Positions 12,799 to 39,631 of a DNA stretch of 64,000 nt are shown in pieces. A program made the translations under genes and the position numbers. Location of the stretch: assembly GCA_964421875.1 (NCBI GenBank), contig CAYQZD010000004.1, positions 4,082 through 68,081 of the forward strand, given 5' to 3'. This stretch comes from an uncultured bacterium (lineage in GTDB: Bacteria > Electryoneota > Tariuqbacteria > Tariuqbacterales > Tariuqbacteraceae). The first letter of the stretch is position 1. Each line of letters begins with the position of its first letter. Under the pieces are notes generated by a model. That model was not told the origin of the DNA and did not search any database. It was given only the letters and a program-made list of their open reading frames with translations.

Positions 12799-12837
12799 TT
12801 TTAGTGGTTGGTGGTTGGTGGTTGGTGATTAGTGTTT
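12794..12837. repeat. tandem heptamers (GTGATTT TAGTGGT TGGTGGT TGGTGAT TAGTGTT TGGTGGT) overlapping or following the stop of gene 11434-12798
   Basis: Direct reading; same TGGTGGT family as 8738-8832. Confidence 0.75.
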
Positions 12838-12921
12838 GGTGGTTATGTCGACTTGTGCGGTAGAAACAAACTTTTCGTTGCCACAGAATCGCTGTCCCAT
12901 AATGTTCGTAATTTTTGTAGA

Positions 12922-13590
12922 ATGTCCGATGAGGTTATGAAAACCGCTTATTACACATCGACTACAATTGATTCGTCGGCTCGAGCTATTCTGAATGAAA
13001 CTGCAGGATTAAGAAGATATCATGAATCCGGCTTAAAACTCGACGAATGCGCCCTGCTCATCATCGATATGCAGAGCTATTTCCTTGATGAACAATCGCA
13101 CGCCTTCGTCCCCAGCGCACTACCGATTGTGCCTCGTATCAAGCGTCTGGCGGAGTTATTCACCGCGCGCGGTCTGCCGGTAATCCTGACCAGACATTCC
13201 AACACCGGCGAGGACGCGAGGACGATGGGGAGCTGGTGGAGCGATTTGATACGCAGAGACGATATTCTAAGCGAAATAATCGCTGACTTCGATTTCGACA
13301 ATGCTTTAGTGGTAGATAAGACTCAATATGACTCATTCTACGGTACCAGGCTGAAAGAAATCCTGACGGACAGAAAGACCAAACAAGTTGTCATTACCGG
13401 CGTGTTGACTCACCTTTGCTGCGAAACCACCGCCCGTTCGGCGTTTATGCGGGGATTCAATGTAATATTCCCGGTCGATGGAACCGCCACTTACGATATT
13501 GGTTATCACAAAGCGACCTTTCTCAACGCTTCGCACGGGTTCGCAGTCCCGACACTCATCGACACTTTGATTAAACGATTCGATGGTTAG
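12922..13590 (+). CDS. isochorismatase-family cysteine hydrolase
   Basis: ALLIIDMQSYF and ITGVLTHLCCETTARSA are hallmark isochorismatase motifs. The ORF table starts at 12832; the ATG at 12922 (MSDEVMK) is preferred. Confidence 0.8.
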   Translation: MSDEVMKTAYYTSTTIDSSARAILNETAGLRRYHESGLKLDECALLIIDMQSYFLDEQSHAFVPSALPIVPRIKRLAELFTARGLPVILTRHSNTGEDARTMGSWWSDLIRRDDILSEIIADFDFDNALVVDKTQYDSFYGTRLKEILTDRKTKQVVITGVLTHLCCETTARSAFMRGFNVIFPVDGTATYDIGYHKATFLNASHGFAVPTLIDTLIKRFDG

Positions 13591-13600
13591 GGTTTGACCG

Positions 13601-14491
13601 ATGTACGAAGCTGCAATCATCGGCGGCGGGCCTGCGGGAATCGCAGCAGCCATACAACTGAGAAGATACTACATAAACCCGTTACTCTTAGAATACGGAG
13701 AAATCGGCGGTTTGCTGCTCAACGCCAACCTGGTGGAGAACTATCCGGGATTTGCCGAAGGCATTCCGGGAGTAGAATTAGTTGATTTATTCAGAATACA
13801 CTTGTTACAGGCGGACATCGAAGCGGTTCGCGAAAAAGTGACTTCGGTGGACTATGTAAAAGATAAATTTAGGATAGAAACGAATTCGGGAGTTTACGAA
13901 TCGAAAACGCTGGTAATCGCTTCCGGCACCAAAGCTAAGCCTTTCGACCTGCCTTACGATTCGGCGGAAATACTCCGAAAAGTCTATTCCGAAATATATC
14001 CGCTTATCGAAGAGAATGGTAAGACTTTTATCATTGTAGGCGGGGGGGACGCGGCTTTCGATTACGCCCTCAATTTAGCCCGGCGGAACAAGGTCTTTAT
14101 CCTCAATCGCAGCGGCACGGTCAAATGCAATGCGGTTTTGTGGGAACGGGCGTCGGAATCTGCGGATATCGAGTATCTTACACTCATCCAGCTGTCGGAT
14201 ATTCACTGTAAAGCAAACAGACTCGTCATAGTATGCCGGGAAAAATCCCATAACGCTGTTAGGTCATTGGAAGCTGACTATATTATCACCGCAGTTGGCA
14301 GAGAACCAAATCTGGACTTCATTGGAAGCGGATTTAAGGACAAAATCGAAGCATTATCTGCGAAGGGGCTGCTACATTTCGCCGGCGACGTCAGGAACGC
14401 GTTATACCGCCAAACCGCAATCTGCGTGGGTGACGGAGTGATGGCGGCGATGAGAATTAACAATATTTTACGGACCAAACTCCACCAATGA
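13601..14491 (+). CDS. thioredoxin-reductase-like FAD/NAD(P)-binding oxidoreductase (no CxxC redox motif seen)
   Basis: AIIGGGPAGIAAAIQL dinucleotide-binding motif and a second GGGDAAFDYA Rossmann motif. TrxB-like fold without the active-site cysteines. Sits 10 nt after the isochorismatase gene; its stop overlaps the next start (ATGA). Confidence 0.65.
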   Translation: MYEAAIIGGGPAGIAAAIQLRRYYINPLLLEYGEIGGLLLNANLVENYPGFAEGIPGVELVDLFRIHLLQADIEAVREKVTSVDYVKDKFRIETNSGVYESKTLVIASGTKAKPFDLPYDSAEILRKVYSEIYPLIEENGKTFIIVGGGDAAFDYALNLARRNKVFILNRSGTVKCNAVLWERASESADIEYLTLIQLSDIHCKANRLVIVCREKSHNAVRSLEADYIITAVGREPNLDFIGSGFKDKIEALSAKGLLHFAGDVRNALYRQTAICVGDGVMAAMRINNILRTKLHQ

Positions 14492-15438
14492 AGATATTAG
14501 GCAGCGTCGGTAACGAAGAAATCGCAACGGTTTACATCGCTGAAAACGAAACGGGGAGATTGTTGGAATTTGCGGAATCGGTTCAACCGCCCATTCCACT
14601 GGAGGATAAGTGGGTACTGCTGGTTTCGAGTCTTTACGGCTGTCCGGTGGGATGCAAGTTTTGCGATGCGGGGGAGTTTTACCGGGGAAAGCTCACCGCC
14701 GAGGAGATTTTCGCGCAAATCGACTATATGGTGAAGCGGCGGTTCCCTCAGAGGAAGATACCCGTTAAAAAATTTAAGATTCAATTCGCGCGGATGGGGG
14801 AACCGGCTTTGAATCCTAACGCGCTTGAAGTCCTGGAGCGGCTGCCGCGCCGTTACGATGCGCCGGGATTACTACCGACTTTATCGACTGTCGCGCCTTT
14901 GGGAACGGACGGTTTTTTTCAAGGCTTGTTGGAGATAAAAAAGGAAATGTATCCGTTAAACTTTCAGCTTCAATTCTCGGTCCACAGCACCGACGCGCGG
15001 GCTCGGGATGAATTAATTCCGGTGAAGAAATGGGATTTGGCGAAAATAGCGGAATACGGCGGGGATTTTTTCGATGCTGGAGGGCGGAAAATCACGTTGA
15101 ATTTCGCACTGGCGGAGGGCGCGCCGCTGGACTGCGATTTGCTAAGGGAAATGTTTTCAGTCGATAAGTTTTTGGTGAAATTCACCCCGGTCAATCCCAC
15201 GGTTCGCGCCTATTCGAACCGCATCGATTCCCGCATATCCCCCCATAACGCCGATTACGATTTTATCGGAAGGCTTCGCGATTTGGGATACGAGGTTATT
15301 TTAAGTATCGGGGAACTGGAGGAGAATAAAATCGGCAGCAATTGCGGTCAATACATCGGCGCTTATCTGCGTTCGGGAAAAACGCTGTCCGAAGGGTATG
15401 AATACCAGGTCGAATGGGATAGTCTGATTGGCGATTGA
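14488..15438 (+). CDS. radical SAM enzyme, RlmN/Cfr-like methyltransferase fold (short form lacking the RlmN N-terminal domain)
   Basis: CPVGCKFCDAG CxxxCxxC motif, preceded by VSS as in RlmN VSSQVGC. MGEPALN (RlmN MGMGEPL), TLSTV, and a C-terminal GSNCGQY matching the RlmN mCys355 region. The position equivalent to RlmN Cys118 is Leu. Confidence 0.65.
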   Translation: MKILGSVGNEEIATVYIAENETGRLLEFAESVQPPIPLEDKWVLLVSSLYGCPVGCKFCDAGEFYRGKLTAEEIFAQIDYMVKRRFPQRKIPVKKFKIQFARMGEPALNPNALEVLERLPRRYDAPGLLPTLSTVAPLGTDGFFQGLLEIKKEMYPLNFQLQFSVHSTDARARDELIPVKKWDLAKIAEYGGDFFDAGGRKITLNFALAEGAPLDCDLLREMFSVDKFLVKFTPVNPTVRAYSNRIDSRISPHNADYDFIGRLRDLGYEVILSIGELEENKIGSNCGQYIGAYLRSGKTLSEGYEYQVEWDSLIGD

Positions 15439-15547: not shown

Positions 15548-16690
15548 ATGCGGGGAATATTCACTATCCGGAGGAGGTTGAAGCTCCTCCCTGCTCTATC
15601 GGCTGCAGCCGCAATGGCGTTGTTCGGGGGAGGGGCGGCTTGGGCAATGCCGAATATAGCGGTGGACTATGGACAGCATTGCGCATTATGCCATCACGAT
15701 CCATCGGGCGGAGGACCGCGGACATTGTATGGCAGTCAATTCGCGGCGCGGAATGAACTCGCCACCTGGACCGATCAGGAGTTGAACTTAGAGCAGGATT
15801 TCGATCCGCAATTGAACGACTGGCTGACGCTGGGAGCGGACCTGCGGATTCTCTACACTAATTTCGAGAATGCCCCTTCCAGCGGAACGCGGATTATGCA
15901 GGGGGCTTTGCATTTGACGGCTCAGCTTCATCCCAAATTCAAGTTCTATTTCAGCAAAGACTGGAACCTGGATTATCAGGCGGCGGCGATAGCGAACATC
16001 CTGCCCTGGGACGGCTATCTCAAGGCGGGGCGTTTCCTTCCGACCTACGGGATCAGGCCGGACGACCATACTACCTTTATTCGGGACGGATTGTTCGGAG
16101 GGGCGTTTTACACCGACACCGGGATTGAGGTTGGCTTTCAGCCGGAGGGCTGGGATTTCACCGCCGGATTGTTGAACGGGACTTCGAGCGGATTCAACGA
16201 TAACCGGCGTTATGCTTTGACTTTCCGCGGAGCGCGGCGGTTTCGAGCGGGGGATTTGAATCTGTTGGCGGGAGGTTCGCTGTATGGCGACGACTATGCA
16301 GACGAGGGCTGGGAAACGCTGTGGTACGGCGCTTTCTACGGATTCAGCTACCATGGATTCACCTACATCGGCGAGGTGGATATTACTGAAAACCACCCCT
16401 CCAGCTTGTATGATTTAGGGCTACCGGGTAATCCAAAGGGATTAGTCAGCTCCCAGGCGCTCTTCTATCAGGTATTCAGAGGATTCTACGCCAAGGCGGG
16501 GCACGATTTTCACGATTACAATATCGACTATGAAACGGGGTCGGCGCAGCGTTTCACCCTGGGAGCGCAGTGGTTTCCGCTGGGATTTTTAGAACTTCAA
16601 GCGAACCTAAGACTGCGGCAGACCAGCGATATAGACGGAGACACTAAAGATACGGTCGAATTCGACGCGCAAATTCATCTATTTTATTAA
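15548..16690 (+). CDS. fused monoheme c-type cytochrome / outer-membrane beta-barrel protein (Cyc2-like candidate)
   Basis: 380 aa. Signal peptide, then a single CALCH heme-binding motif about 45 aa in. The remaining ~330 aa have alternating hydrophobic/aromatic beta-strand character and a C-terminal HLFY aromatic end typical of OMP barrels. Confidence 0.45.
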   Translation: MRGIFTIRRRLKLLPALSAAAAMALFGGGAAWAMPNIAVDYGQHCALCHHDPSGGGPRTLYGSQFAARNELATWTDQELNLEQDFDPQLNDWLTLGADLRILYTNFENAPSSGTRIMQGALHLTAQLHPKFKFYFSKDWNLDYQAAAIANILPWDGYLKAGRFLPTYGIRPDDHTTFIRDGLFGGAFYTDTGIEVGFQPEGWDFTAGLLNGTSSGFNDNRRYALTFRGARRFRAGDLNLLAGGSLYGDDYADEGWETLWYGAFYGFSYHGFTYIGEVDITENHPSSLYDLGLPGNPKGLVSSQALFYQVFRGFYAKAGHDFHDYNIDYETGSAQRFTLGAQWFPLGFLELQANLRLRQTSDIDGDTKDTVEFDAQIHLFY

Positions 16691-17313
16691 TGGGGGACAA
16701 AATGTTAAATAGTTTTCCAATTCTGCTGACCGCCGCCCTCTTGACAGCGGCGGCTTTCGGGGGTGAAATCGTCTTCACGGTGGAGCCGGGCGACTACCAG
16801 AACGTAACATTTCACTCCAAAGCGCCGCTGGAATCATTCGAAGGTGTGACAAACCAAATTTTCGGCAGCATTCAGGTGAATCTGGACAGCCTGGCGGGAG
16901 CGTCAGCGGTAATCAAGGTGGATATGCAGGCGCTGGATACCGGTATCAATCTGCGAAATAAGCATATGCGCGACAACCATCTGCATACGGCGGATTATCC
17001 CTTCGCGGAATTCAGTTTAAAGCGGATTGAAGGCGCGGGGAACCTTAAAGAAGGGGAAGCGGTCGAGTTCAACGGCATTGGCGATTTTACACTGCACGGC
17101 GTCACGCGGGAGATTTCGGTTCCACTGAGGGTAAAATTCCTGACAGATGGGAGGGACACTCCGTTGGAAACGGCGGGTAACGCTCTTCATATCAAGGGAG
17201 AATTCCAGGTGAAATTGTCCGACTATGAGGTTCCGCGTCCGAAGTTTTTGGTGATGAAACTGAACGAAGTCCAGCGGGTGACGATTGAGTTGTGGGCGAA
17301 GGGGGGTGAGTAG
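16690..17313 (+). CDS. YceI-family periplasmic protein (polyisoprenoid/quinone-binding lipocalin-like)
   Basis: Signal peptide. VTFHSKAPLESFEGV matches the YceI signature. Alternative ATG at 16702 lies behind a GGGGGA RBS. Confidence 0.75.
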   Translation: MGDKMLNSFPILLTAALLTAAAFGGEIVFTVEPGDYQNVTFHSKAPLESFEGVTNQIFGSIQVNLDSLAGASAVIKVDMQALDTGINLRNKHMRDNHLHTADYPFAEFSLKRIEGAGNLKEGEAVEFNGIGDFTLHGVTREISVPLRVKFLTDGRDTPLETAGNALHIKGEFQVKLSDYEVPRPKFLVMKLNEVQRVTIELWAKGGE

Positions 17314-17314
17314 G

Positions 17315-17713
17315 ATGAGGCGGATGGCGTTCTTCTTGGCGGTGGCGGCGTTAGCGGCGTTTATCATCCTCTCCTGCGAAGATATGGGGGAAGATGTCGT
17401 CGTCTCCCCCAATGCGTCGGGAGATACCACGGACTGGGCGGAGGTCCAGCCCATATTCCAACAGCACTGCGTAAACTGCCATAATCCGTCTAATTTGGGC
17501 GGGGGATTGAACCTGGAAACTCACGCCGGAGTTCTGGCCGGGGGTAATCATGGAGCAGCGGTGGTTCCGGGGAATCCTGACGGGTCGCTACTGGTGCGGA
17601 CGCTGGAGGGGACTTCAGCCGAGGTATCGCAGATGCCGTTAGGGGCGCAGGCGCTTTCGGCTGCGCTAATCGCTGTGGTGCGGGATTGGATAGCTGACGG
17701 CGCGGGAGGGTAG
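17315..17713 (+). CDS. small c-type cytochrome lipoprotein with PSCyt1-type domain
   Basis: ATG at 17315 (MRRMAFFLAVAALAAFIILSCE lipobox) one nt after the YceI stop. CVNCHNPSNLGGGLNLETHAGVLAGGNHGAAVVPGNPDGSLLVRTL matches the PSCyt1 pattern CxxCH...LxL...GG..G..VPG.P..S.L. Confidence 0.7.
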   Translation: MRRMAFFLAVAALAAFIILSCEDMGEDVVVSPNASGDTTDWAEVQPIFQQHCVNCHNPSNLGGGLNLETHAGVLAGGNHGAAVVPGNPDGSLLVRTLEGTSAEVSQMPLGAQALSAALIAVVRDWIADGAGG

Positions 17714-17715
17714 GC

Positions 17716-17838
17716 TGCGACTTTCGATTTGTGATTTGCGATTTGCGATTTGCGATTTGGGAAAGGGGGATTTGATATTTTGGGGTCGATTGTTTAGATT
17801 AGATAGACTTGCGATTTGTGATTTGTGATTTGTGATTG
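17716..17838. repeat. two blocks of (GATTTGC/GATTTGT)n tandem heptamers (17716-17760 and 17808-17838) after the stop of gene 17315-17713, followed by a G-rich tract and a TTAAGCGGATT/AATCCGCTTAA inverted repeat
   Basis: Direct reading. Confidence 0.8.
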
Positions 17839-17946
17839 GGGAATGGATGGGGATGGTGGTGGGAACAATTGAGATTCACAGGGAATTAAGCGGATTAAGC
17901 AGATTAGGAGGCTGAAAAATCCGCTTAATTGGGTAACATTTACTGA

Positions 17947-19875: not shown

Positions 19876-20275
19876 TAGAATATGGTTGGTTCATCCGGAA
19901 AATGGGTAGTTCAAATAACTCAAAGATAAACAGGTAGATGATGTATTTTTAAAATGAACTGATATGATTTGCATTTTATATTTATTTTACATATATTTTT
20001 TCATACTTTATCTGTTGAATACTAGTACTTAAAATTCAATAACATAGCTACATGTTAGAGTATGTTAGTTGTATAAACAGAAAAATGTACCCGGGCCAAA
20101 TCTGTTAATAATTTCATCAATTCCATGTGTTTAGCTAAATTACGAAGATTACCTTTTTCCTTGATGAAATAATTTATAATCTTGTGTCAAAACGAAAAAT
20201 ATTGGAACATCCCATGCATATAGTTGCAACCATTTCCGAATTGTCTAAGTAAAATAAATTGGGAGGTATACCGCC

Positions 20276-20896
20276 ATGGCTGATTCTGGAAAAATAATTG
20301 AAGCATTAATCCAAATTCTAGCATTGGCCGGAATTGGTTTATTTGGTAAAGCTCTGTGCCATTTTTGTACTTATATGAAGGATCTGAATAGACTAAAAAA
20401 ATTGATCATAGAGAGTAGGCCAATTCCACCAGGTCTTTGGCAAAGAATGAGGAAGCGTGAAGGATTTAGACGAGATGAACATATAACAGGCCATTATCTG
20501 ATAATAGCTTCAATGATTTACCTGTTAAAACTAGTCGTTGGAACTAATGAGTTGGGATTAAACTTCTTCACAATATCGATCGATAATAATAATACAAGAA
20601 CTCTGATAATAACAATCATCATACTTCTTGGCTTAATCCTTGGTTATATTGTTGTTCGTTTAGGTAACATCGATGCACATGGTACAAAAGAAAAAATAGT
20701 ATCAAAAAAGCAATTTATTAGTAATAAGGATGTTGCGGAAAGTAAGAAAACCTATAAGCCAATATCTAAATCTAATAAAATCAGCTTCATTCCATTCTCA
20801 ATCTTTCATGTAGTAAACACAATTGGGGTCGCTTCACTTAGCGTATCTTATTATATAGCTGATAATTTATTAAAGTTTTCAATACCCGGAGGTTGA
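20276..20896 (+). CDS. hypothetical 4-TM membrane protein (AT-rich island 1)
   Basis: GGGAGG RBS. Four predicted TM helices. No recognisable family. Low-GC codon usage. Confidence 0.5.
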   Translation: MADSGKIIEALIQILALAGIGLFGKALCHFCTYMKDLNRLKKLIIESRPIPPGLWQRMRKREGFRRDEHITGHYLIIASMIYLLKLVVGTNELGLNFFTISIDNNNTRTLIITIIILLGLILGYIVVRLGNIDAHGTKEKIVSKKQFISNKDVAESKKTYKPISKSNKISFIPFSIFHVVNTIGVASLSVSYYIADNLLKFSIPGG

Positions 20897-20897
20897 A

Positions 20898-21200
20898 ATG
20901 TTGACTCCCCTGTTATTTTTTGCCTTGCTTGGCATAATAATTGTTGTTTTCAGTATTCTTATAGACTTAGCTTTCAAAAAGTCTTTTGCAGCTAGGAAAA
21001 GGTTCCTTGTAGGAATACTACGAAAAAAAGCCTCAAAACTCACACCAGACAAGTATGCACTTACCTATTTTGCGCCAAAAATTGACAAGAGTGATTCTCC
21101 AGAAGACGGAATAGTAAAAAGTATTTCAAAAGATAATTTAGGGTTAGTGCAAGAGGAATTCATAAAGATCTTTATAAAAAACCTGAAGAGTAAAAACTAG
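20898..21200 (+). CDS. hypothetical small single-pass membrane protein (AT-rich island 1)
   Basis: GGAGG RBS, one nt after the previous stop. N-terminal TM helix, then a Lys-rich tail. Confidence 0.45.
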   Translation: MLTPLLFFALLGIIIVVFSILIDLAFKKSFAARKRFLVGILRKKASKLTPDKYALTYFAPKIDKSDSPEDGIVKSISKDNLGLVQEEFIKIFIKNLKSKN

Positions 21201-21229
21201 GTTTATTAAAAAAAGCAAGAGTACATACT

Positions 21230-21979
21230 ATGTCTGATTTAAGTAATCCCCGTTATCAATTTTTATCTGGAACATATGATTTAATAATATCAGAATCTTT
21301 AATTCATCGTGTCGATATGTTTCCATTTCCTAAGTTTCACGAAAATCAAATATCTGAAGAGGAGTTAGGGGAACTAGCAGATAGATTATCTGGAACGATT
21401 GAATATTCCAGTAATTTGCCTGATGATATATACAGTTCAATCACACATGTGGATGGCCAAGCCAACATTGTGATTAATATAAATCATGGACCAGCAGTAA
21501 TCTGGTTTTTATTAGGTCATGAAATCGGACATCTTTGGCTGCACCCCAGACTAGATCTATTTGATGTGGTAGAGTTTAGCGATATTAAATCCAGGGCATT
21601 AATACCTGAAATTAAAAAGAATGGGGAGAATTGGGATTACATACCATATAAGGTCTTAGAAGATGAAGCTAACTATTTCTCAATATGCACTTTTGTCCCC
21701 TTAAGTAAAATGGTTGAATGGTATCGTAAAGGTTCATTATGCACATCTTTTCTATCGCAGTGGGTTTTAAAATGTCTAATGGATTCGGGGAAAATTTCTA
21801 AGGAACATGATGATGGTTCTGAACGAACACCATCTAGAAGACTTGTCCAAAGGATGCGCGGCATAATGCGCAGTTTTAAGTTACGCCTTGAAATAAATAA
21901 ATTGATATTTGCGGATAGTAATGAAATGCCTAAATGGGACGATTCATTTCTTGAAGACAATTTTGTAGGTAGGGAATGA
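21230..21979 (+). CDS. HExxH zinc-metallopeptidase-domain protein, ImmA/IrrE (DUF955)-like
   Basis: LLGHEIGHLWLH fits the ImmA/IrrE HEIGH signature. No HTH partner seen. AT-rich. Confidence 0.45.
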   Translation: MSDLSNPRYQFLSGTYDLIISESLIHRVDMFPFPKFHENQISEEELGELADRLSGTIEYSSNLPDDIYSSITHVDGQANIVININHGPAVIWFLLGHEIGHLWLHPRLDLFDVVEFSDIKSRALIPEIKKNGENWDYIPYKVLEDEANYFSICTFVPLSKMVEWYRKGSLCTSFLSQWVLKCLMDSGKISKEHDDGSERTPSRRLVQRMRGIMRSFKLRLEINKLIFADSNEMPKWDDSFLEDNFVGRE

Positions 21980-22012
21980 TTATACAAATCTATTATTAGA
22001 ATAAGGTTTAGA

Positions 22013-22096: not shown

Positions 22097-22498
22097 TCAA
22101 TCCACCTTCACCATACCCAAATCGACAGGCCCACAGAATGAGGATTCGGCGAGGGAGATTTTAGGGAGCGCCGGAGTGAAATTCTGCGGTATAACGGAGG
22201 GGGGGCTTTTCTGCGTTATGTTCGAAGCCGCGAATCCGGCGAGGAATCCTGCGACGAAGACCGCGGCAACTTTCAATATAATCAGCCTGGGGCTTGTTTT
22301 CGATCCCGGCAGGGGTATGGGAGGAGCGATACTCTTCATTTCCGCGCCGCCGATGGTTTCAAGGTCGGATTCAATCCGCGCCAGTTTTTCCCGGCACTGA
22401 GCGCATTCGGTTAGATGCCTGTCGATTTCCATCCCTTCTTCAACTTCACATAATTTCAACGCTGATCGAATCAGGGCGCTATCGTCAAGGTGCTTCAT
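22097..22498 (-). CDS. anti-sigma factor, zf-HC2 type, single-pass membrane protein
   Basis: HLTECAQCREKL putative Zn-finger (HxxxCxxC), then a TM helix (LIILKVAAVFVAGFLAGFAA). Start overlaps the ECF sigma stop. Confidence 0.6.
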   Translation of the reverse strand: MKHLDDSALIRSALKLCEVEEGMEIDRHLTECAQCREKLARIESDLETIGGAEMKSIAPPIPLPGSKTSPRLIILKVAAVFVAGFLAGFAASNITQKSPPSVIPQNFTPALPKISLAESSFCGPVDLGMVKVD

Positions 22499-23031
22499 TT
22501 CAACACTCCGTTTCTCTTAAGTTCCTCGCGGCAGGCTTTGACCGCGTAAAATAAGCGCGATTTGACAGTTCCCAGGGGGACGCCGGTGATTTGGGCGATT
22601 TCGCGGTAATCGCGCCCTCCGTAGAAGCGGAGGACGAGGATATCCCGGTGTTCATTCGTGAGCGTGTTAACCGCTTTCACAATCAGACTATCCCTTTCCT
22701 GTAACAGAATATCCTCCAAGGGCGAGGGGGCATTGTCGCTGTAGTCCTCCCCCTCGAGGCCGGGATTTCGCATTTGCCGCTTCCTTTCCTTCAGCGCCAG
22801 TCGGTAAGCGATGGTGAAAAGGTACGATTTCAGTTCACCCCGCCGGTGCTTGATTTCGCCCTTGAAGAGACGGATGAAGGCTTCCTGGGTGATATCGCGA
22901 GCGGAATCCGCCGACCCGGTGATGAGCGCCATCGACTTCGAGAGGGACTCGGCGAATTTCTCCACCAGCGTCTGCCAGGCGGCTTCACTCCCCGCTTTGG
23001 CTGTATTCAGACACTCCCAGTCGGATATCAT
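22495..23031 (-). CDS. RNA polymerase ECF-type sigma-70 factor
   Basis: Region 2 and region 4 features (DILVLRFYGGRDYREIAQITGVPLGTVKSRL). Preferred ATG at 23031 gives an ATGA overlap with the upstream lipoprotein gene. The ORF table extends to 23283. Confidence 0.8.
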   Translation of the reverse strand: MISDWECLNTAKAGSEAAWQTLVEKFAESLSKSMALITGSADSARDITQEAFIRLFKGEIKHRRGELKSYLFTIAYRLALKERKRQMRNPGLEGEDYSDNAPSPLEDILLQERDSLIVKAVNTLTNEHRDILVLRFYGGRDYREIAQITGVPLGTVKSRLFYAVKACREELKRNGVLK

Positions 23032-24305
23032 TCCAGATAGCTCCGGTTTCGACACCATTCTTTTATTTCGGGGAAGGCGGCGTAACCGCTCCAGAATTGT
23101 CCCATATAGTCTTTTATGTTCTGTTTCAAGAGCGCTTCGAGGTGTTCTTGGTACCAGTGAAACAGCTTCAAAACGTTTTTGCTCGCAGGCTCCTGCGATT
23201 CCAGTAAAGCCGCTATGGTGGCGGCGTAGTTCACCGCCAGGTTCCTGCCGACCGAACCCTCCTTGGCGTGACGCAGGTTCCATCCATCCATTCCGGCGGT
23301 GCGGAAGTCCTGAAGCAGTACGCGTACGGCTTCACGGTAATAATCCTGACGCGGCTTACCGGGCGGCGCCGCCAGGGTTACCAGCCCCAGGTTGACTCCT
23401 TTTTCCCGGTATTCATCGACCACCCTGGTAGAGTACATTGTGGAGGCGAGGTAAACCGGACGGCTCTCGCGGGCGGCGGCTTCAATCAGCCTCACAATCA
23501 AGGTGTCGCCGTACAGTCCGGCAGCGGGTATAAGTTTTTTCCCCTCCTTATACTCCTTTTTTACCGTTTCGCGCAGTTCGGCGAGCTTGCTTTCGGTGAT
23601 GAAGGCGGGAACCCCTTGTTCAATCATCAAAGCGGGATACCAGTCGGTGTTGAGCAGGGAACGGTTGACGATTCGGATTTCCGGTCTGATGTTCAATATC
23701 CGGGTCAGCATCCAGCCGGGATAGGTGTCCATATCCCCGTTGGTGATAAGTATAGCGTTTTTTTCCATCAATGCAAACATATTGTAGGAATAATCCATCA
23801 CCGCGTCGTTGACCGCGCCGTTGTCAAGCAGCCGTTTTAAAGCGAGGTCCATCTTTTCGAATTCCTTCTGGTTCATATAGTTGCCCACTAAAGCGAACCA
23901 GGGGTCCATATATTCCGGGTCGAGTTCAGCGGCTCGCTCCAGCAGCCGGATACCCTCCAGGTTGTTGTCCATCCCGTGTTTCAGCAGTCCCGCCAGGTAG
24001 AGGATGGTGGGATTCGCCGGGTATTTTTTCAGCCCCTTCGCCAGCATTGGCTCATACTGCTTGTCCCCAGCGTAGCGGGCGGCGTACATCCAGTTGGCGT
24101 AGGCGTCTTCGGAGGGGTAAGCATGATAGTAGTCTTTCCAAAGGCCGGCTAATTTTTCATAGGTTTCCCGTTCATAAACGATTTGGCGTTTGCTCACGAT
24201 TTTTTCGGGTCTGACCACCTGGTCTGCGCTTTGCCGGCAGCTTATGATGAAGAATGCCGCCGTTAGGAAAGCGATTGCCGCGGTTTTTGGGGTTATAAGT
24301 CTCAT
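23028..24305 (-). CDS. TPR-like repeat lipoprotein, first gene of the ECF sigma/anti-sigma operon
   Basis: Preferred ATG at 24305 (MRLITPKTAAIAFLTAAFFIISCRQ lipobox). TPR-like helical repeats. Unknown C-terminal domain. Confidence 0.5.
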   Translation of the reverse strand: MRLITPKTAAIAFLTAAFFIISCRQSADQVVRPEKIVSKRQIVYERETYEKLAGLWKDYYHAYPSEDAYANWMYAARYAGDKQYEPMLAKGLKKYPANPTILYLAGLLKHGMDNNLEGIRLLERAAELDPEYMDPWFALVGNYMNQKEFEKMDLALKRLLDNGAVNDAVMDYSYNMFALMEKNAILITNGDMDTYPGWMLTRILNIRPEIRIVNRSLLNTDWYPALMIEQGVPAFITESKLAELRETVKKEYKEGKKLIPAAGLYGDTLIVRLIEAAARESRPVYLASTMYSTRVVDEYREKGVNLGLVTLAAPPGKPRQDYYREAVRVLLQDFRTAGMDGWNLRHAKEGSVGRNLAVNYAATIAALLESQEPASKNVLKLFHWYQEHLEALLKQNIKDYMGQFWSGYAAFPEIKEWCRNRSYLE

Positions 24306-24627: not shown

Positions 24628-26484
24628 ATGAAAGGGCTGTTTCTGTATATTTTTCTGTTCTCGGCATACGCCGCAGCCGCTTTGGCGCAAGCGCCGGATA
24701 CCCTGTGGACCTGAACATATGGCTGGAACTATGATGAGAGAGCCTATGCTGTACAACAGACCAGCGACGGCGGGTTTATAATCACAGGCAGAACCGAATA
24801 CTATGGGCGTTATTTTGATGTCTATTTAATTAAAACCGACAGGCAGGGGAATGAGCTATGGTATCAAGTAATAGGTGGAGGAAATGTAGATTGTGGCAGA
24901 AGCGTTCAACAAACATCGGACGGCGGGTATGTCATAGCGGGATATACCCATTCTTTTGGCGCTGGATATATTGATGTCTATTTAATCAAAACCAACAGTT
25001 TCGGTGATACGACTTGGACTAAAACCTTTGGCGGAAGCGATGAAGATGGCGGTTACAGCGTTCAGCAGACCAGCGACGGCGGATTTGCAATCGCAGGATA
25101 TACCTATTCTTTAAGCGCAGCCGGTGGGACTGATGTTTATTTAATAAAGACCGACGCGCAAGGGAATCAATTATGGTATCGAACCTTCGGAGGCAGCCAT
25201 AACGACAAAGCCTACAATATTCAGTTGACCTTTGACGGCGGATTTATAATCGCTGGCAAGACAGTTTCCTTTGGCGCTGGTAATGGAGTCTATTTAATCA
25301 AGACCGACGCGCAGGGGAATGAACAATGGAGTCGAACCTACGGTGAAGCCTTATCGGTAGATGAAGGTTGGTGGGTTCAGCAGACCAGCGATAGCGGATA
25401 TATTATTACGGGAGGAACCAGAATAGGCACTTCACCTGATTATAACCTTTACTTAGTAAGGACTGATGCGCAGGGGAATGAACAATGGAGTCGAGTCTTC
25501 GGTGGGAATGAACTTGAAAATGGCAGGAGCGTTCAGCAGACCGATGACGGGGGATTCCTAATCGTAGGGTACACCACTTCTTACGGCGGAGGTGAGTCTG
25601 ATGTCTATTTGATTAAAACCGATAATTACGGCAATACTTCCTGGACTAAAACAATCGGCGGAATTGGTCACGATAGTGGTCAAGGCCTTGAGAAGACCAG
25701 CGACGGCGGATTTGCAATCGCCGGATTAACCAGTTCTTATGGCGCAGGTGGGTATGATGTCTATTTAATCAGGCTGGCGTCTTTAAAATTGACGCTGTCT
25801 TCACGAACAAATCCCGTTCAAATCCTCTCCGGCGGAGGCAGTTTCAATTTTGAGGCGGAGATTATTAATTACACCTATAATCCAATCACCTTCGACGCCT
25901 GGACCGAAGTTGTTCTTCCCGATGGAAATACTTACGGGCCGCTCCTTATGCGCGAAAATCTCTCAATTCAAGGCCGACAGACAATCATGCGCGCCAGGAT
26001 AGTCCAGAATGTCCCCGGATATGCGCCGCCGGGAAATTACCGCTATGTCGGTAAAGTCAGAATTAATCCGGATTCAGTTATTTCTTCGGATTCCTTCCAT
26101 CTCGTCAAACTTCCCGGTGAGAATTCGCCCGGGCATAATCAGGATTGGGATGTTTACGGCTGGTTCGACGAGGGTGAATCACAATTCAGCATACTTAAGG
26201 ACAATGGTCGCAGAGTGCGGGGACTCTGCGACACATTCAGCGCTTCGCCTAATCCTTTCAACCAGCGTTCGCTGGTCTCATTCAGCCTCAAGCGCGAAGG
26301 GTTAATCCGTTTGGCGGTGTATGATGTGTCGGGGCGGGAAGTCGCGGCGCTGGCGGAAGGCTGGTATCCGGCGGGGCATCATTCGATGCTTTTCGATGCC
26401 TCCGGCATGGCCAGTGGCGTTTATTTCGCGCGGCTGGAGGCGGGGGATTTTTCACAGGCAAGGAAATTGCTGCTGGTGAAGTAG
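24628..26484 (+). pseudogene. T9SS-sorted secreted protein with about eight ~47-aa propeller-like repeats, interrupted by one in-frame TGA at 24712-24714 immediately after the signal peptide
   Basis: AGGAGGA RBS. ATG at 24628 gives MKGLFLYIFLFSAYAAAALAQAPDTLWT then TGA. The same frame continues for 590 aa through the repeat units (GG[FY]xIxGxTxSxGxGxxDxYLIKTDxxGNxxW[ST][KR]T[FY]GG) to a T9SS CTD (VSGREVAALAEG...SGVYFARLEAG...LLLVK). The TGA falls where the other repeats have an Arg/Lys codon (CGA/AAA). Confidence 0.6.
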
Positions 26485-29527: not shown

Positions 29528-29542
29528 AAAATAACTACAAAT

Positions 29543-32020: not shown

Positions 32021-32154
32021 TATCTTATTCCAGAATATTGACGGTGGTTTTCAGTTTGGAGAGTCCGCAGGTGTATTAAATAAGGCTCTTCTCCAATTTT
32101 GATTCAAGTATCCAATACAGCTCAAAGCCAGGGCATCAGCAAAAAAACTTGCTT

Positions 32155-32238
32155 GTCATTCCGAGCGAATGCCGGAATCCAGTTTCATTATTGAAAGAGA
32201 TTTTCCTGGACTCTCGCTTTCGCGGGAGTGACATACGA
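32155..32238. repeat. degenerate MITE-like element copy F
   Basis: GTCATTCCGAGCGAATGCCGGAATCCAG ... GGACTCTCGCTTTCGCGGGAGTGACATACG retains the hairpin skeleton. Confidence 0.4.
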
Positions 32239-32295
32239 TCGGACAATCATTTTTGTTATCGGTATAACTCTGTTTGCCGAAGCTATTCTCACATA

Positions 32296-32556
32296 TCACG
32301 CATCGCGTTTTCGGAACATTATGGGGACGCTGTCGCCGATGGGAGCGCCGATTTGCACCAGACGCCAATCCCTGTCGCGCTCGTTCAGGACGCGTTTGAT
32401 GGTCTTGATTTTATCAGAGGTAGAGGGATCAAGTTCTTCCCACTCAACAATTTCAATGCGATATTTCAATTTGCGGTTTTTTCCGTTGATGGTAACATCG
32501 ATTTCGATGTTCTGTTCGGCGTCATAGGTCGGTATTTGGATGACGACTTCACGCAT
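32296..32556 (-). CDS. small hypothetical protein (86 aa) inserted between permease paralogs
   Basis: Intact ORF with a Lys/Glu-rich beta-like sequence. Adjacent to a degenerate MITE-like copy. No family recognised. Confidence 0.3.
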   Translation of the reverse strand: MREVVIQIPTYDAEQNIEIDVTINGKNRKLKYRIEIVEWEELDPSTSDKIKTIKRVLNERDRDWRLVQIGAPIGDSVPIMFRKRDA

Positions 32557-32601
32557 ATTTTTTTACCTCACAGGGCTTATGCCTCCGATATAGTGTCTCA
32601 C

Positions 32602-35052: not shown

Positions 35053-35149
35053 CTTTCTAAGTCATTCGATGAGTTTTCGTAAATCCTGCTTTGGTCAAAC
35101 TGAAAGAAAACGATATTTTATAAGACAATAGGTATCTGTAGCGATAAGC

Positions 35150-35252
35150 GAAATTGTCATTCCGGCGCAGCCGGAATCCTTCCGGAGAAGAGGGATTCTG
35201 GCTTGCTTCGCAGCCAGAATGACGTATACGCTTCATATCAGTAAAGTGTTAC
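35150..35252. repeat. MITE-like element copy D (full length, with CTTCATATCAGTAAAGTGT tail), between permease paralog 3 and the acyl-CoA dehydrogenase gene
   Basis: AAATTGTCATTCCGGCGCAGCCGGAATCCTTCCGGAGAAGAGGGATTCTGGCTTGCTTCGCAGCCAGAATGACGTATACGCTTCATATCAGTAAAGTGT. Confidence 0.8.
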
Positions 35253-35259
35253 AACATTT

Positions 35260-36453: not shown

Positions 36454-36491
36454 ATCGATTCTCGAATTTTTCTATTATCTTAAACCATTTA

Positions 36492-38855: not shown

Positions 38856-38892
38856 TTTAATTTAAAGAGTATGCCTGAAAAAAACACTCAGC

Positions 38893-39582
38893 TTAAACGT
38901 GAAATTTTCCGTTGAAGTTTTCGGAGACAATATGCCCGTCGAACAGGTGCACGGTGCGATGGGCGTATTCAGCGTAGGCTGGTGAGTGAGTCACCATTAT
39001 TATGGTTGTCCCGCCTTCGTTCAATTCGGTTAGTAGCCTCATCACTTCGTCACCGTGAGTGGAATCGAGGTTGCCGGTGGGCTCGTCCGCCAGAATCAGC
39101 TTGGGCTGAGCGACCACAGCCCGGGCTACAGCCACACGCTGCTGTTGGCCGCCCGAAAGCTGCTGGGGGAAGTGATTCTTGCGGTGCATAATCTCCATCT
39201 GTTCCAGGATTTGGTTCACCCGCTCTTTGCGTGCGGCGGTTTTCATTCCCAGATAGAGGAGGGGCAGTTCCACATTTTCATAGACGGTGAGCTCATCGAT
39301 GAGATTGAAGCTCTGGAAGACGAAACCGATGTTCCGTTTTCTGAGATTGGCGCGCTGGCGTTCGGAATAACGTGAAACCTCTTCTTCTTTGAAGAAGTAT
39401 TCCCCATCGGTGGGATTGTCCAGCATACCAAGCAGGTGCAGCAGGGTCGATTTCCCGCATCCTGAAGGCCCCATCACAGCGACGAATTCTCCGGATTCGA
39501 TGCCGATGTTGACATTTTCCAGAGCGGTGGTTTCGACTTCCTCTGTGGTGTAGATTTTTTTCAGGTTTTTGGTTTTTAGCAT
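38893..39582 (-). CDS. ABC transporter ATP-binding protein (MacB/LolD-like)
   Basis: Walker A GPSGCGKST, ABC signature LSGGQQQRVA, Walker B ILADEPTGNLD. Confidence 0.9.
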   Translation of the reverse strand: MLKTKNLKKIYTTEEVETTALENVNIGIESGEFVAVMGPSGCGKSTLLHLLGMLDNPTDGEYFFKEEEVSRYSERQRANLRKRNIGFVFQSFNLIDELTVYENVELPLLYLGMKTAARKERVNQILEQMEIMHRKNHFPQQLSGGQQQRVAVARAVVAQPKLILADEPTGNLDSTHGDEVMRLLTELNEGGTTIIMVTHSPAYAEYAHRTVHLFDGHIVSENFNGKFHV

Positions 39583-39631
39583 TATATGACTCCTTGGTTG
39601 ACGTCATTTATTGATAACATAGATTTGACAG

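What the first reader, a model, noticed from the sequence alone, without database searches (positions are those of the whole stretch)
15548..17713. Candidate outer-membrane electron-transfer module: Cyc2-like fused cytochrome-porin + YceI + PSCyt1 cytochrome lipoprotein
Gene 15548-16690 encodes a signal peptide, a single CxxCH (CALCH) about 45 residues in, then ~330 residues with beta-barrel-like sequence ending in an aromatic C-terminus. This is the defining architecture of Cyc2-type fused monoheme cytochrome-porins used for extracellular iron oxidation/electron uptake. It is followed directly (overlapping TAATG) by a periplasmic YceI-family isoprenoid/quinone-binding protein and, 1 nt later, a small lipoprotein with a planctomycete-type PSCyt1 heme domain (CVNCH...VPGNPDGSLL). 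Together they could form a periplasm-to-surface electron conduit. This pairing is not a described operon, to my knowledge.
Basis: partly seen in the sequence, partly recalled or inferred. Interest (0 to 1): 0.6.

Follow-up and report, generated by a model that had tools for sequence, protein, structure and literature searches.

The report
Short Cyc2-like haem-porin redox operon
Three tightly packed genes encode an outer-membrane pore with a built-in haem (a distant, so far unannotated cousin of the iron-oxidising protein Cyc2), a quinone-binding carrier protein and a lipid-anchored cytochrome related to the iron oxidase FoxE; together they probably carry electrons across the outer membrane, and current annotation pipelines miss the whole family.

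Summary
Gene 15548-16690 encodes a signal peptide, one CxxCH (C45-H49) and a confidently predicted 16-strand beta-barrel whose best solved matches are OprO/OprP. It is followed by a YceI lipocalin and a PSCyt1 lipoprotein cytochrome. The CxxCH is present in all 134 full-length homologs. Profile-profile comparison shows remote but clear homology to Cyc2-motif proteins (99% probability; haem head and barrel each significant, controls negative). However, 0/179 family members pass the published Cyc2 motif filter. The family is shorter (about 377 vs 459 aa) and has its own signature (CxxCH-x-[N/D]-P-x-GGG-x-R). It also has its own partner: a lipoprotein cytochrome homologous to FoxE (E 7e-17), adjacent in 27/42 loci versus 2/34 canonical Cyc2 loci. 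YceI is a clade-specific third component, present in 7/7 members of the window's clade at 31-55% identity. The family spans at least 12 phyla, is always named "hypothetical", and gene callers cut off its haem motif. The most likely function is an outer-membrane electron-transfer module of the Cyc2 type. Substrate and direction are inferred, not shown. Verdict: a new variant of a known kind.

The parts
15548..16690 (+). Fused monohaem cytochrome / 16-strand outer-membrane porin (380 aa), a member of a 'short Cyc2-like' family
   Evidence: ORF. 898 cluster representatives at E<=1e-3. AF2 model with 16 strands, pTM 0.77. OprO/OprP are the top PDB matches. hhalign 99% to Cyc2-motif proteins. No Pfam or NCBIfam family.
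15548..15646 (+). Signal peptide (aa 1-33, ...A-W-A | M-P-N-I...). The conserved 'A' of the Cyc2-type A-x-P motif is the -1 residue of the predicted signal-peptidase site.
   Evidence: Read from the sequence. The A-x-A/L-P pattern is conserved in alignments. RBS-like GGGGG lies 5 nt upstream of ATG 15548. The cleavage site was not run through a predictor.
15641..15742 (+). Haem 'head' (aa 32-65: WAMPNIAVDYGQHCALCHHDPSGGGPRTLYGSQF). CxxCH at nt 15680-15694. The family signature is CxxCH-x-[ND]-P-x-GGG-x-R.
   Evidence: C45, C48, H49, G54 and R58 are invariant and P35 and P52 are >=90% conserved in 122 sequences. Head-to-head hhalign against the Cyc2 head: 98.4%, E 5e-15.
15824..16687 (+). 16-strand beta-barrel (aa 93-380) with an aromatic C-terminus. 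Conserved His/Met residues M117, H174 and H377 are candidate distal haem ligands (H377 probably faces the lumen).
   Evidence: DSSP of the model. Barrel-to-barrel hhalign against the Cyc2 barrel: 92.6%, E 4.5e-7. Conservation: M117 87%, H174 87%, H377 93%.
16702..17313 (+). YceI-family periplasmic lipocalin (203 aa from ATG 16702; an alternative ATG at 16690 overlaps the upstream stop)
   Evidence: Pfam YceI 3e-18. PDB sequence hits: E. coli YceI 1Y0G (4e-6) and the UQ-8/polyisoprenoid-binding X158 domain 2X32/2X34 (1e-4). It lies immediately downstream of the barrel gene in 7/7 members of the window's clade.
17315..17713 (+). Lipoprotein monohaem cytochrome c of the PSCyt1 / FoxE type (132 aa; lipobox Cys21 at nt 17375-17377; CVNCH at nt 17468-17482; MPLG Met107 is the likely distal ligand)
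   Evidence: Pfam PSCyt1 2e-11. Lipobox IILSC. A profile of 18 partner cytochromes matches FoxE 5MAB at E 6.7e-17 over both FoxE haem domains; the single sequence gives 3.8e-4. A same-strand neighbour of the barrel gene in 27/42 loci.

Best explanation
This is a three-gene operon for an outer-membrane redox module. Shown here: gene 1 is a 16-strand porin whose mature N-terminus carries a c-type haem-binding head about 11 residues before the CxxCH, and both head and barrel are remotely homologous to Cyc2, the fused cytochrome-porin Fe(II) oxidase. Gene 3 is a lipid-anchored monohaem cytochrome homologous to the haem domains of FoxE, the Rhodobacter Fe(II) oxidase. Gene 2 is a YceI lipocalin of the kind that binds ubiquinone-8 or polyisoprenoids. 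Inferred: with an even strand number both termini face the periplasm, so the haem head sits at or in the periplasmic mouth of the pore. A small dissolved redox species, most likely Fe2+ by analogy with Cyc2, enters the pore and exchanges an electron with that haem. The electron then passes to the membrane-tethered FoxE-like cytochrome and on to periplasmic or inner-membrane carriers. In the window's clade, YceI probably adds a lipophilic cofactor (a quinone) to this relay, or protects the membrane around it. Direction (uptake or export) and substrate are not determined. The hosts are mostly heterotrophs and predators, so the role may be Fe(II) oxidation for detoxification or supplementary electron uptake rather than lithotrophic growth.
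For: Architecture: signal peptide, single invariant CxxCH, 16-strand barrel, aromatic C-terminus. The best solved structural matches, OprO 4RJW and OprP 2O4V, are the same templates reported for the Cyc2 porin (PMC8406198). Homology to proteins carrying the published Cyc2 motif: hhalign 99.0%, E 2.9e-18, 316 columns. Head alone 98.4%, barrel alone 92.6%, mismatched and reversed controls <=0.3%. Reciprocal HMM hits: 81/81 and 120/122. The Cyc2-motif set matches genes in Ralstonia, Burkholderia-group and Acidithiobacillus plasmids at 31-44% identity, and the family profile matches the A. ferrooxidans copy at 94.7% through the head. Partner: PSCyt1-type lipoprotein cytochrome on the same strand within 3 kb in 27/42 loci versus 2/34 canonical Cyc2 loci (Fisher p = 8e-8). 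Its profile hits FoxE at E 6.7e-17. YceI: adjacent in 7/7 members of the window's clade despite divergence to 31-35% identity, and found again in a different gene order in an Ignavibacteriales locus. Flanking genes are otherwise unrelated, so the module is self-contained. YceI proteins bind UQ-8 and pair functionally with cytochromes (PMC9113575; PMC8981238).
Against: There is no experimental evidence for haem attachment, redox potential or Fe(II) reactivity. The window protein fails the strict Cyc2 motif (A-M-P-N-I-A-V-D-Y instead of A-x-P-x-F-A-R-[QK]-[TY]; no PxL) and scores only 9.8 bits against my surrogate Cyc2 HMM. Homology to Cyc2 is remote, and Cyc2 homologs themselves occur in many non-iron-oxidisers. 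Hosts (Cellvibrio, Roseateles, Aliiglaciecola, Bdellovibrionota, Poribacteria, Ignavibacteriota and others) are not known iron oxidisers. No inner-membrane electron acceptor or oxidase is linked. The head region of the model has only moderate confidence (pLDDT 50-80) and I could not inspect coordinates, so the position of the haem relative to the pore is inferred. 14 of 42 well-flanked loci have neither partner nearby. My link from the 'Cyc2-motif set' to biochemically characterised Cyc2 rests on the published motif definition, not on a direct alignment to the PV-1 or A. ferrooxidans chromosomal proteins.
Confidence: 0.55

Rival explanations
1. An envelope antioxidant system. YceI carries a quinone or quinol that quenches lipid peroxyl radicals in the outer membrane or periplasm, and the two c-type cytochromes re-reduce or re-oxidise it. 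This would be an outer-membrane, c-type-cytochrome analogue of the BcnA (YceI lipocalin) - LcoA (cytochrome b561) system.
For: The YceI-cytochrome pairing has experimental precedent in lipid-peroxidation defence, and YceI binds UQ-8 (PMC9113575). The hosts are largely aerobic heterotrophs and predators rather than iron oxidisers. ECF sigma and anti-sigma genes recur near proteobacterial family members. In one homolog locus (L003) the trio abuts peroxiredoxin, OsmC and thioredoxin genes, and the window has a TrxR-like gene upstream.
Against: YceI accompanies the barrel in only 7/42 loci, whereas the cytochrome pair is the conserved core. No cytochrome b561 is present. Oxidative-stress neighbours are not recurrent in the YceI clade. 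Both haem proteins are homologous to Fe(II) oxidases. This idea does not explain why a pore with a haem at its mouth would be needed.
Confidence: 0.15
2. The same hardware run in reverse: an electron exit. Electrons from the periplasm pass via the lipoprotein cytochrome to the pore haem and reduce an extracellular soluble acceptor, such as chelated Fe(III), Mn(III), humic quinones, or Fe(III) for reductive iron uptake.
For: Nothing in the sequence fixes the direction. Family members occur in Ignavibacteriota/Melioribacter, Myxococcota and sediment lineages that include metal reducers. The partner is membrane-tethered, as in other porin-cytochrome complexes. A YceI-bound quinone could link to the quinol pool.
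Against: The closest characterised relatives (Cyc2, about +208 mV; FoxE) are oxidases of Fe(II) rather than reductases. A single haem inside a narrow 16-strand pore cannot reach solid minerals. No multihaem cytochromes are linked.
Confidence: 0.15
3. An ordinary Cyc2 orthologue: the organism is a lithotrophic iron oxidiser and this is simply its already-known iron oxidase.
For: Same architecture, same structural templates and detectable homology. The length of 380 aa passes the 365-aa cut-off.
Against: 0/179 relatives carry the defining Cyc2 motif or PxL. Cross-family scores are <=42 bits, against E-values of 1e-60 to 1e-125 within the family. The partner gene set is different. The rest of the window looks like a proteolytic FCB-type heterotroph, with peptidases S9, peptide transporters and T9SS cargo. 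No oxidase, cyc1 or rusticyanin-type genes are linked.
Confidence: 0.05
4. A specific porin in which the haem has a non-redox role (structural plug, gas or redox sensor, or haem/iron acquisition), with the neighbouring genes only loosely related.
For: The barrel resembles substrate-specific porins (OprO, OprP, OprD family). One third of well-flanked loci have no cytochrome partner nearby.
Against: The haem motif and surrounding residues are invariant over very deep divergence. There is strong same-strand linkage to a second cytochrome (p = 8e-8). The same head occurs as a stand-alone mini-cytochrome and fused to other cytochrome domains, which fits an electron-transfer module.
Confidence: 0.07

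Closest known systems
Cyc2 fused cytochrome-porin (Acidithiobacillus ferrooxidans Cyc2, Mariprofundus Cyc2PV-1; Keffer et al. 2021, PMC8406198)
   Same: Signal peptide; haem head at the extreme mature N-terminus (A-x-P-x-aromatic-A-...-x3-CxxCH with identical spacing); a single haem; a 16-strand porin resembling OprO/OprP; aromatic C-terminus; often followed or preceded by a small c-type cytochrome gene. Profile-profile homology in both head and barrel.
   Different: Lacks the R of F-A-R and the [QK] (window: I-A-V-D-Y; family: [FY]-A-x-R-Y). Lacks PxL. Has the insertion [ND]-P-x-G-G-G-x-R instead. About 80 aa shorter (median 377 vs 459). Has its own conserved barrel residues (D98, R100, M117, H174, R179, E194, H377). 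Has a different partner (FoxE-like lipoprotein, sometimes YceI). The host range is dominated by non-iron-oxidisers.
FoxE, dihaem Fe(II) oxidoreductase of Rhodobacter ferrooxidans SW2 (PDB 5MAB)
   Same: The lipoprotein cytochrome shares the sequence blocks CxxCH...GLxL...PG-P...MPLG...WI--GA with both FoxE haem domains. Profile E 6.7e-17.
   Different: It is a single haem domain with an N-terminal lipid anchor, rather than a soluble tandem dihaem protein. It is encoded next to a haem-porin rather than in foxEYZ.
BcnA/LcoA (YceI lipocalin + cytochrome b561) lipid-peroxyl-radical detoxification system (PMC9113575)
   Same: A periplasmic YceI-family lipocalin genetically coupled to a membrane-associated cytochrome. 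A bound quinone is the presumed redox-active cargo.
   Different: The cytochromes here are c-type (one in an outer-membrane barrel, one a lipoprotein), not an inner-membrane b561. No PsrA-type reductase is linked.
Cellvibrio japonicus Cbp2D/Cbp2E and Saccharophagus X158 (YceI-like domain with c-type cytochrome domains; PMC8981238)
   Same: A YceI-like UQ-8/polyisoprenoid-binding module combined with monohaem c-type cytochrome domains in an extracytoplasmic electron-transfer role. X158 is among the best PDB sequence hits of the window's YceI.
   Different: Those are secreted multidomain proteins with carbohydrate-binding modules that serve LPMOs. Here the parts are separate genes linked to a haem-porin.
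Porin-cytochrome complexes MtrCAB / MtoAB / PioAB
   Same: An outer-membrane barrel plus cytochrome(s), including a lipoprotein cytochrome, moving electrons across the outer membrane.
   Different: Those use a 26-strand barrel threaded by a decahaem cytochrome. Here there is a 16-strand barrel with one covalently fused haem and a monohaem partner.
Phosphate-selective porins OprO/OprP (PDB 4RJW, 2O4V)
   Same: Best structural matches for the barrel (Foldseek E 3e-10 and 8e-10, TM about 0.56-0.58).
   Different: 11-12% sequence identity; no haem head.

Membership tests
Cyc2 (as defined by Keffer et al. 2021 / FeGenie) | Signal peptide and a single CXXCH close to the N-terminus | tested here: met
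   CALCH at residues 45-49 after an A-W-A signal-peptidase-type site. All 134 full-length relatives have CxxCH near the N-terminus, and 156 of all 179 retrieved proteins have exactly one.
Cyc2 (as defined by Keffer et al. 2021 / FeGenie) | A-X-P-X-F-A-R-[Q/K]-[T/Y] motif, with F-A-R five residues upstream of CXXCH | tested here: not met
   The window has A-M-P-N-I-A-V-D-Y at the same spacing; the family consensus is A-L-P-R-[FY]-[AS]-x-[RQ]-[YT]. 0 of 179 relatives match P.FAR[QK][TY]. A, P, the aromatic, A and Y/T are shared; the R and [QK] are not.
Cyc2 (as defined by Keffer et al. 2021 / FeGenie) | P-X-L motif four residues downstream of CXXCH | tested here: not met
   0/179 relatives have CxxCH-x3-PxL, against 56/81 of the Cyc2-motif set. 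Instead, 105/179 have CxxCH-x-[ND]-P-x-GGG-x-R, which 0/81 of the Cyc2-motif set have.
Cyc2 (as defined by Keffer et al. 2021 / FeGenie) | Length at least 365 aa (most confirmed members at least 400) | tested here: met
   380 aa; family median 377 against 459 for Cyc2-motif proteins. It passes the cut-off but sits at the short extreme.
Cyc2 (as defined by Keffer et al. 2021 / FeGenie) | C-terminal 16-strand porin structurally similar to OprO/OprP | tested here: met
   AF2 model with 16 strands, pTM 0.77. Foldseek top hits 4RJW and 2O4V. Closure of the barrel was not inspected in coordinates.
Cyc2 (as defined by Keffer et al. 2021 / FeGenie) | Score above the calibrated FeGenie Cyc2 HMM cut-offs / placement in clusters 1-3 | not testable with these tools
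   The FeGenie HMMs are not available. Surrogate: an HMM of 81 Cyc2-motif proteins gives the window protein 9.8 bits and the best family member 42.6 bits. Profile-profile homology is 99%.
Cyc2 (as defined by Keffer et al. 2021 / FeGenie) | Haem-dependent Fe(II) oxidation, midpoint potential about +200 mV | not testable with these tools
   Needs expression and biochemistry.
YceI (Pfam PF04264) lipocalin | Match to the YceI-like domain above the gathering threshold; periplasmic signal peptide | tested here: met
   67.1 bits against a cut-off of 23.7, E 3e-18. An N-terminal hydrophobic signal-like segment is visible. PDB sequence hits 1Y0G, 2X32 and 2X34.
YceI (Pfam PF04264) lipocalin | Bound polyisoprenoid or ubiquinone-8 ligand | not testable with these tools
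   Known for solved relatives (PMC9113575, PMC8981238). Not testable for this protein.
PSCyt1 (PF07635) / FoxE-type cytochrome c domain | Match to PSCyt1 above threshold; CxxCH plus the downstream MPLG and WI--GA blocks shared with FoxE | tested here: met
   44.8 bits against a cut-off of 22. The partner profile matches FoxE 5MAB at E 6.7e-17 in two stretches; the alignment is shown.
FoxE (foxEYZ iron oxidase) | Tandem dihaem architecture encoded in a foxEYZ operon | tested here: not met
   One haem domain, lipid-anchored, with no foxY or foxZ neighbours.
Bacterial lipoprotein | Lipobox [LVI][ASTVIL][GAS]C after a hydrophobic signal segment | tested here: met
   MRRMAFFLAVAALAAFIILS-C21. 27 of 56 partner cytochromes have a lipobox-like site in the first 70 residues of the ORF, and the post-Cys segments are conserved. 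This is pattern matching only; no predictor was run.
BcnA/LcoA lipocalin-cytochrome b561 system | YceI gene linked to a cytochrome b561 gene | tested here: not met
   No b561 among the window's neighbours or the recurrent neighbours of the family.
MtrAB/PioAB-type porin-cytochrome complex | A barrel of about 26 strands with a separate multihaem cytochrome inserted | tested here: not met
   16 strands, one fused haem, monohaem partner.

The most novel reading that the evidence does not exclude
The short Cyc2-like porin plus its FoxE-like lipoprotein is a widespread, unrecognised two-haem outer-membrane conduit. It gives many 'ordinary' heterotrophs, predators and symbionts (Cellvibrio, Roseateles, Bdellovibrionota, Poribacteria, Ignavibacteriota, Eisenbacteria and others) the ability to oxidise dissolved Fe(II) or exchange electrons with their surroundings. 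In the window's clade a YceI lipocalin loaded with a quinone acts as a diffusible periplasmic electron carrier between this conduit and the inner-membrane quinone pool. That would be a kind of periplasmic shuttle not described before. The haem head would itself be an ancient mobile mini-cytochrome of about 35 residues that also exists free-standing and was captured independently by porins.
Probability: 0.12. Interest if true: 0.85.

Novelty: new variant of a known kind. Interest (0 to 1): 0.6.

Why it matters
Cyc2 is the main genetic marker used to infer microbial iron oxidation in genomes and metagenomes. This work indicates a sister family that the published motif filter excludes, which would likely escape motif- and cut-off-based Cyc2 searches. 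It has at least 898 clusters at 50% identity, spans at least 12 phyla, has no Pfam or NCBIfam model, and is always named 'hypothetical'. Gene callers often strip its haem motif. If it exchanges electrons with Fe(II) or other extracellular species, estimates of which organisms take part in iron and redox cycling would need revision. The consistent pairing with a FoxE-like lipoprotein links two iron-oxidase lineages that were previously treated as unrelated systems. The YceI link offers a testable lead on the long-unclear function of bacterial YceI lipocalins. Several hosts are culturable (Roseateles agri, Aliiglaciecola sp., Melioribacter sp.; Ignavibacterium album is a cultured species, though found here only as a MAG), so the question can be tested directly.

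Full report
**What is in the sequence.** Three co-directional ORFs occupy 15548-17713.

- P1 (15548-16690, 380 aa) begins with a basic and hydrophobic signal segment ending A-W-A at residue 33. Its only CxxCH is CALCH at residues 45-49 (nt 15680-15694), and it ends HLFY.
- The second ORF is a YceI-family protein (Pfam 3e-18).
- The third is a PSCyt1 cytochrome c (2e-11) whose best start, ATG 17315, gives a lipoprotein signal (…AAFIILS-C21).
- The YceI start is more probably ATG 16702. It has GGGGGA 4 nt upstream, the same kind of site that precedes P1 and the cytochrome gene. It gives 203 aa like the homologs and is the start used in public gene calls.
- P1 matches no Pfam or NCBIfam model. 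The only hit is a sub-threshold one to the porin family BBP2.

**Is the haem motif real?** Homology searches found 31 relatives in the word-indexed database. The exhaustive search found 898 cluster representatives at E<=1e-3 and 352 at <=1e-10. Every source name seen is "hypothetical protein".

- All 134 full-length relatives carry a CxxCH 23-96 residues from the start.
- In a 122-sequence alignment, C45, C48, H49, G54 and R58 are invariant.
- The family signature is A-L-P-R-[FY]-[AS]-x-[RQ]-[YT]-G-Q-x-C-x-L-C-H-V-[ND]-P-[TS]-G-G-G-x-R.
- 131 of the 179 retrieved proteins end in F or Y.
- The public gene call for this very locus (P0001, 321 aa, seen in several assemblies) starts at an internal TTG. 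That removes both the signal peptide and the haem motif. Conservation of the N-terminus shows this call is wrong.

**Relation to Cyc2.** Keffer et al. define Cyc2 by five features: a signal peptide; one CXXCH; the motif AXPXFAR[Q/K][T/Y] with FAR five residues before the CXXCH; PXL four residues after it; and a length of at least 365 aa with a 16-strand porin.

- I retrieved proteins that satisfy that motif from metagenomes: 81 complete, non-redundant proteins of 395-581 aa, median 459, with aromatic C-termini.
- One of them matches "cytochrome C" or hypothetical genes at 31-44% identity over at least 89% of its length in Ralstonia, Caballeronia, Paraburkholderia, Acidiphilium and Acidithiobacillus ferrooxidans plasmids. 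Ralstonia and the Burkholderia group are among the genera named as Cyc2 hosts.
- Reciprocal HMM searches connect the two sets (81/81 and 120/122 hits, best 37-43 bits).
- hhalign gives 99.0% probability, E 2.9e-18, over 316 columns.
- Split into parts, head versus head gives 98.4% (E 4.8e-15) and barrel versus barrel 92.6% (E 4.5e-7). Head versus barrel and reversed-sequence controls give 0.1-0.3%.
- The family profile also aligns with the A. ferrooxidans plasmid protein through the head at 94.7%.

So the homology is real and covers both modules. Yet none of the 179 relatives passes P.FAR[QK][TY], and none has PxL. 105 have the [ND]-P-x-GGG-x-R block, which is absent from all 81 Cyc2-motif proteins, and the family is about 80 residues shorter. 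The window protein itself scores only 9.8 bits against the surrogate Cyc2 HMM. I therefore file it as a distinct sister family that works like Cyc2, not as a member of Cyc2 as published.

**Partners.** Among 42 loci with enough flanking sequence:

- 27 have a PSCyt1-type cytochrome within 3 kb, always on the same strand. 18 lie upstream (mostly Proteobacteria and Marinimicrobia) and 9 downstream.
- 7 have YceI within 3 kb downstream.
- The comparison group of canonical Cyc2-motif loci has such a cytochrome in 2/34 and YceI in 0/34. Fisher p = 8e-8 and 0.015 respectively.

The partners are PSCyt1 by Pfam in Roseateles, Aliiglaciecola, Marinimicrobium, Marinimicrobia and Ignavibacteriota. Many (27 of 56) show a lipobox-like site near the start, followed by a conserved post-Cys segment. 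A profile of 18 partner domains matches FoxE, the Fe(II) oxidoreductase of Rhodobacter ferrooxidans (5MAB), at E 6.7e-17 over both FoxE haem domains, far ahead of any other solved protein. The shared blocks are CxxCH, GLxL, PG-P, MPLG and WI--GA.

A neighbour-joining tree puts the window protein in a clade of seven loci (31-55% identity). All seven have YceI immediately downstream of the barrel gene. An Ignavibacteriales locus outside the clade has the order barrel-cytochrome-YceI, and a Myxococcales locus has barrel-YceI. Genes beyond the trio differ from locus to locus, so the module is self-contained. The upstream isochorismatase / TrxR-like / radical-SAM genes of the window are not conserved with it.

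**Mechanism.** Three things are shown. There is a secreted 16-strand barrel with an invariant c-type haem site about 11 residues from its mature N-terminus. There is a co-inherited lipoprotein monohaem cytochrome of the FoxE type. In this clade there is also a co-inherited YceI lipocalin whose solved relatives bind ubiquinone-8 or polyisoprenoids (PMC9113575; PMC8981238).

The rest is inferred.

- An even-stranded barrel has both termini in the periplasm, so the head sits at or in the periplasmic mouth of the pore.
- Its distal ligand probably comes from one of the conserved residues M117, H174 or H377.
- Small dissolved redox species entering the pore exchange electrons with it. Fe2+ is the most likely, by analogy with Cyc2, whose haem is at about +208 mV.
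- The tethered FoxE-like cytochrome relays the electrons.
- YceI contributes a lipophilic cofactor or protects the membrane.

I put 0.55 on "outer-membrane electron-transfer module of the Cyc2 type", with Fe(II) as the leading but unproven substrate.

**Rivals.**

- (a) A YceI-quinone antioxidant system analogous to BcnA-LcoA (0.15). It is favoured by the host range and by ECF-sigma neighbours. It is weakened because YceI is present in only a minority of loci, there is no b561, and there is no recurrent stress-gene context.
- (b) The same conduit run outward (0.15).
- (c) A plain Cyc2 orthologue in an iron lithotroph (0.05). The motif tests, the partners and the heterotroph-like window context (peptidases, peptide transporters, T9SS cargo) contradict this.
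- (d) A porin with a non-redox haem (0.07).

**Prior description.** No paper in the searchable library contains both YceI and Cyc2. The five papers that mention PSCyt1 are unrelated. Searches for FoxE with Cyc2 and lipoprotein, or Cyc2 with Ignavibacteria, show no description of this family or pairing. Recent Cyc2 phylogeny papers do not mention these lineages. Most subscription-journal papers are not in the library, so absence is not proof.

**Verdict.** This is a new variant of a known kind: a widespread, unannotated short Cyc2-like haem-porin family with a FoxE-like lipoprotein partner and, in the window's lineage, a YceI third component. Interest is about 0.6. It bears directly on how iron-oxidation and extracellular-electron-transfer potential is read from genomes, and culturable hosts make it testable.

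Noticed in passing
L021:7157-7372(+), L069:4041-4256(+), L008:2424-2678(+), L071:5311-5607(+), L028:4861-5253(+); L025, L040, L053, L054; L089:1-285(-), L124:94-525(+); L073:2095-3315(+): The haem 'head' motif (A-x-P-x-Y-A-...-CxxCH-x-N-P-x-GGG-x-R-N-x-x-G) also occurs without any barrel. It appears as ~70-100-aa precursors in Alphaproteobacteria, whose mature peptide would be only ~35 residues and ends ...ANGHK (a candidate mini-cytochrome). It also appears fused to another domain in ~195-aa Chloroflexota proteins, and on contigs labelled Methanolobus and 'uncultured archaeon'. This suggests an autonomous, mobile haem module that was later fused to porins.
   Followed up: partly
window 15548-16690 vs P0001; L246-L248: Public gene calls for this exact gene (NCBI and three Logan assemblies) start at an internal TTG (residue L60). 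They give a 321-aa product that lacks the signal peptide and the CxxCH. This is a systematic mis-call that hides the haem motif from annotation.
   Followed up: yes
window 17716-17759, 17809-17837, 17885-17906: Two heptamer tandem arrays (TGCGATT x6.3 and TTGTGAT x4.1) and a 9-mer array (ATTAAGCAG x2.4) sit in the 430-nt gap between the operon and the POT peptide-transporter gene. The pattern occurs nowhere else in the window (6 overlapping matches, 0 expected by chance). Function unknown.
   Followed up: partly
window 20001-22000 (ORFs 20276-20896, 20898-21200, 21230-21979): An AT-rich islet (GC 0.33 against ~0.51 around it) with three ORFs, one an IrrE/Peptidase_M78-like metalloprotease (HEIGH). 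It is probably a small mobile or defence insertion.
   Followed up: partly
window 22097-22498(-) and 22495-23283(-); proteobacterial loci such as L095:5084-5674, L022:2846-3721: An ECF sigma factor and a zf-HC2-like anti-sigma gene lie 4.4 kb downstream of the operon. ECF sigma (12 loci) and putative anti-sigma (6 loci) genes also recur near family members in Proteobacteria, along with Peptidase_S8 (10 loci) and Gcw_chp outer-membrane proteins (9 loci). This may indicate envelope-signal regulation; I did not test whether the sigma factors are orthologous.
   Followed up: no
L084:4651-5916(-) (Acetofilamentum sp. MAG): A single 421-aa ORF joins, in frame, a barrel fragment (no head), a YceI fragment and a cytochrome fragment that has lost its CxxCH, in the same order as the window's operon. 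It looks like a decayed or mis-assembled copy rather than a functional fusion.
   Followed up: partly
L245:2890-4257(+) and 4761-5186(+) (Acidithiobacillus ferrooxidans YQ-N3 plasmid CP084173.1): A plasmid-borne Cyc2-family gene annotated 'hypothetical protein' (head AIPAFAAQTGEPCSACH, so it also lacks the R of F-A-R). It sits next to a transposase gene and is followed by a small c-type cytochrome gene. Nearly identical copies are on Acidiphilium plasmids.
   Followed up: partly
window 12832-15438: Upstream and co-directional, 110 nt from the operon, are an isochorismatase-family hydrolase, a thioredoxin-reductase-like flavoprotein and a radical-SAM protein distantly like RlmN/Cfr, with overlapping or abutting ends. 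This is a separate small cluster of unknown role, not conserved next to the trio in other lineages.
   Followed up: partly
window 27119-40882(-): A run of four ~800-aa ORFs, two of which were scanned and are MacB_PCD/FtsX duplicated permeases (27119-29527 and 32602-35052; 29543-32020 and 36492-38855 were not scanned), interrupted by an acyl-CoA dehydrogenase gene and followed by an ABC ATPase and an HlyD-type adaptor. This is an expanded MacB-like efflux or export locus.
   Followed up: no
window 25225-26484, 44587-47121, 56076-57914, 58883-60481: At least four proteins carry type IX secretion C-terminal sorting domains (Por_Secre_tail). This places the organism in or near the FCB group, consistent with the barrel protein's closest named relatives being Eisenbacteria-type MAGs.
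   Followed up: partly
partner cytochromes in L001, L003, L033, L052, L075, L079, L087, L096 vs L019, L029, L032, L056, L101, L115: Directly after the lipid-modified Cys the partner cytochromes carry a lineage-specific conserved segment. It reads C-[ST]-D-[ML]-G-[DE] in FCB-type loci (window: C-E-D-M-G-E-D) and C-x-G-x-G-E-G-L-[DN]-x-x-G-x-P in Proteobacteria. It may be a docking peptide for the barrel or a sorting signal; untested.
   Followed up: no
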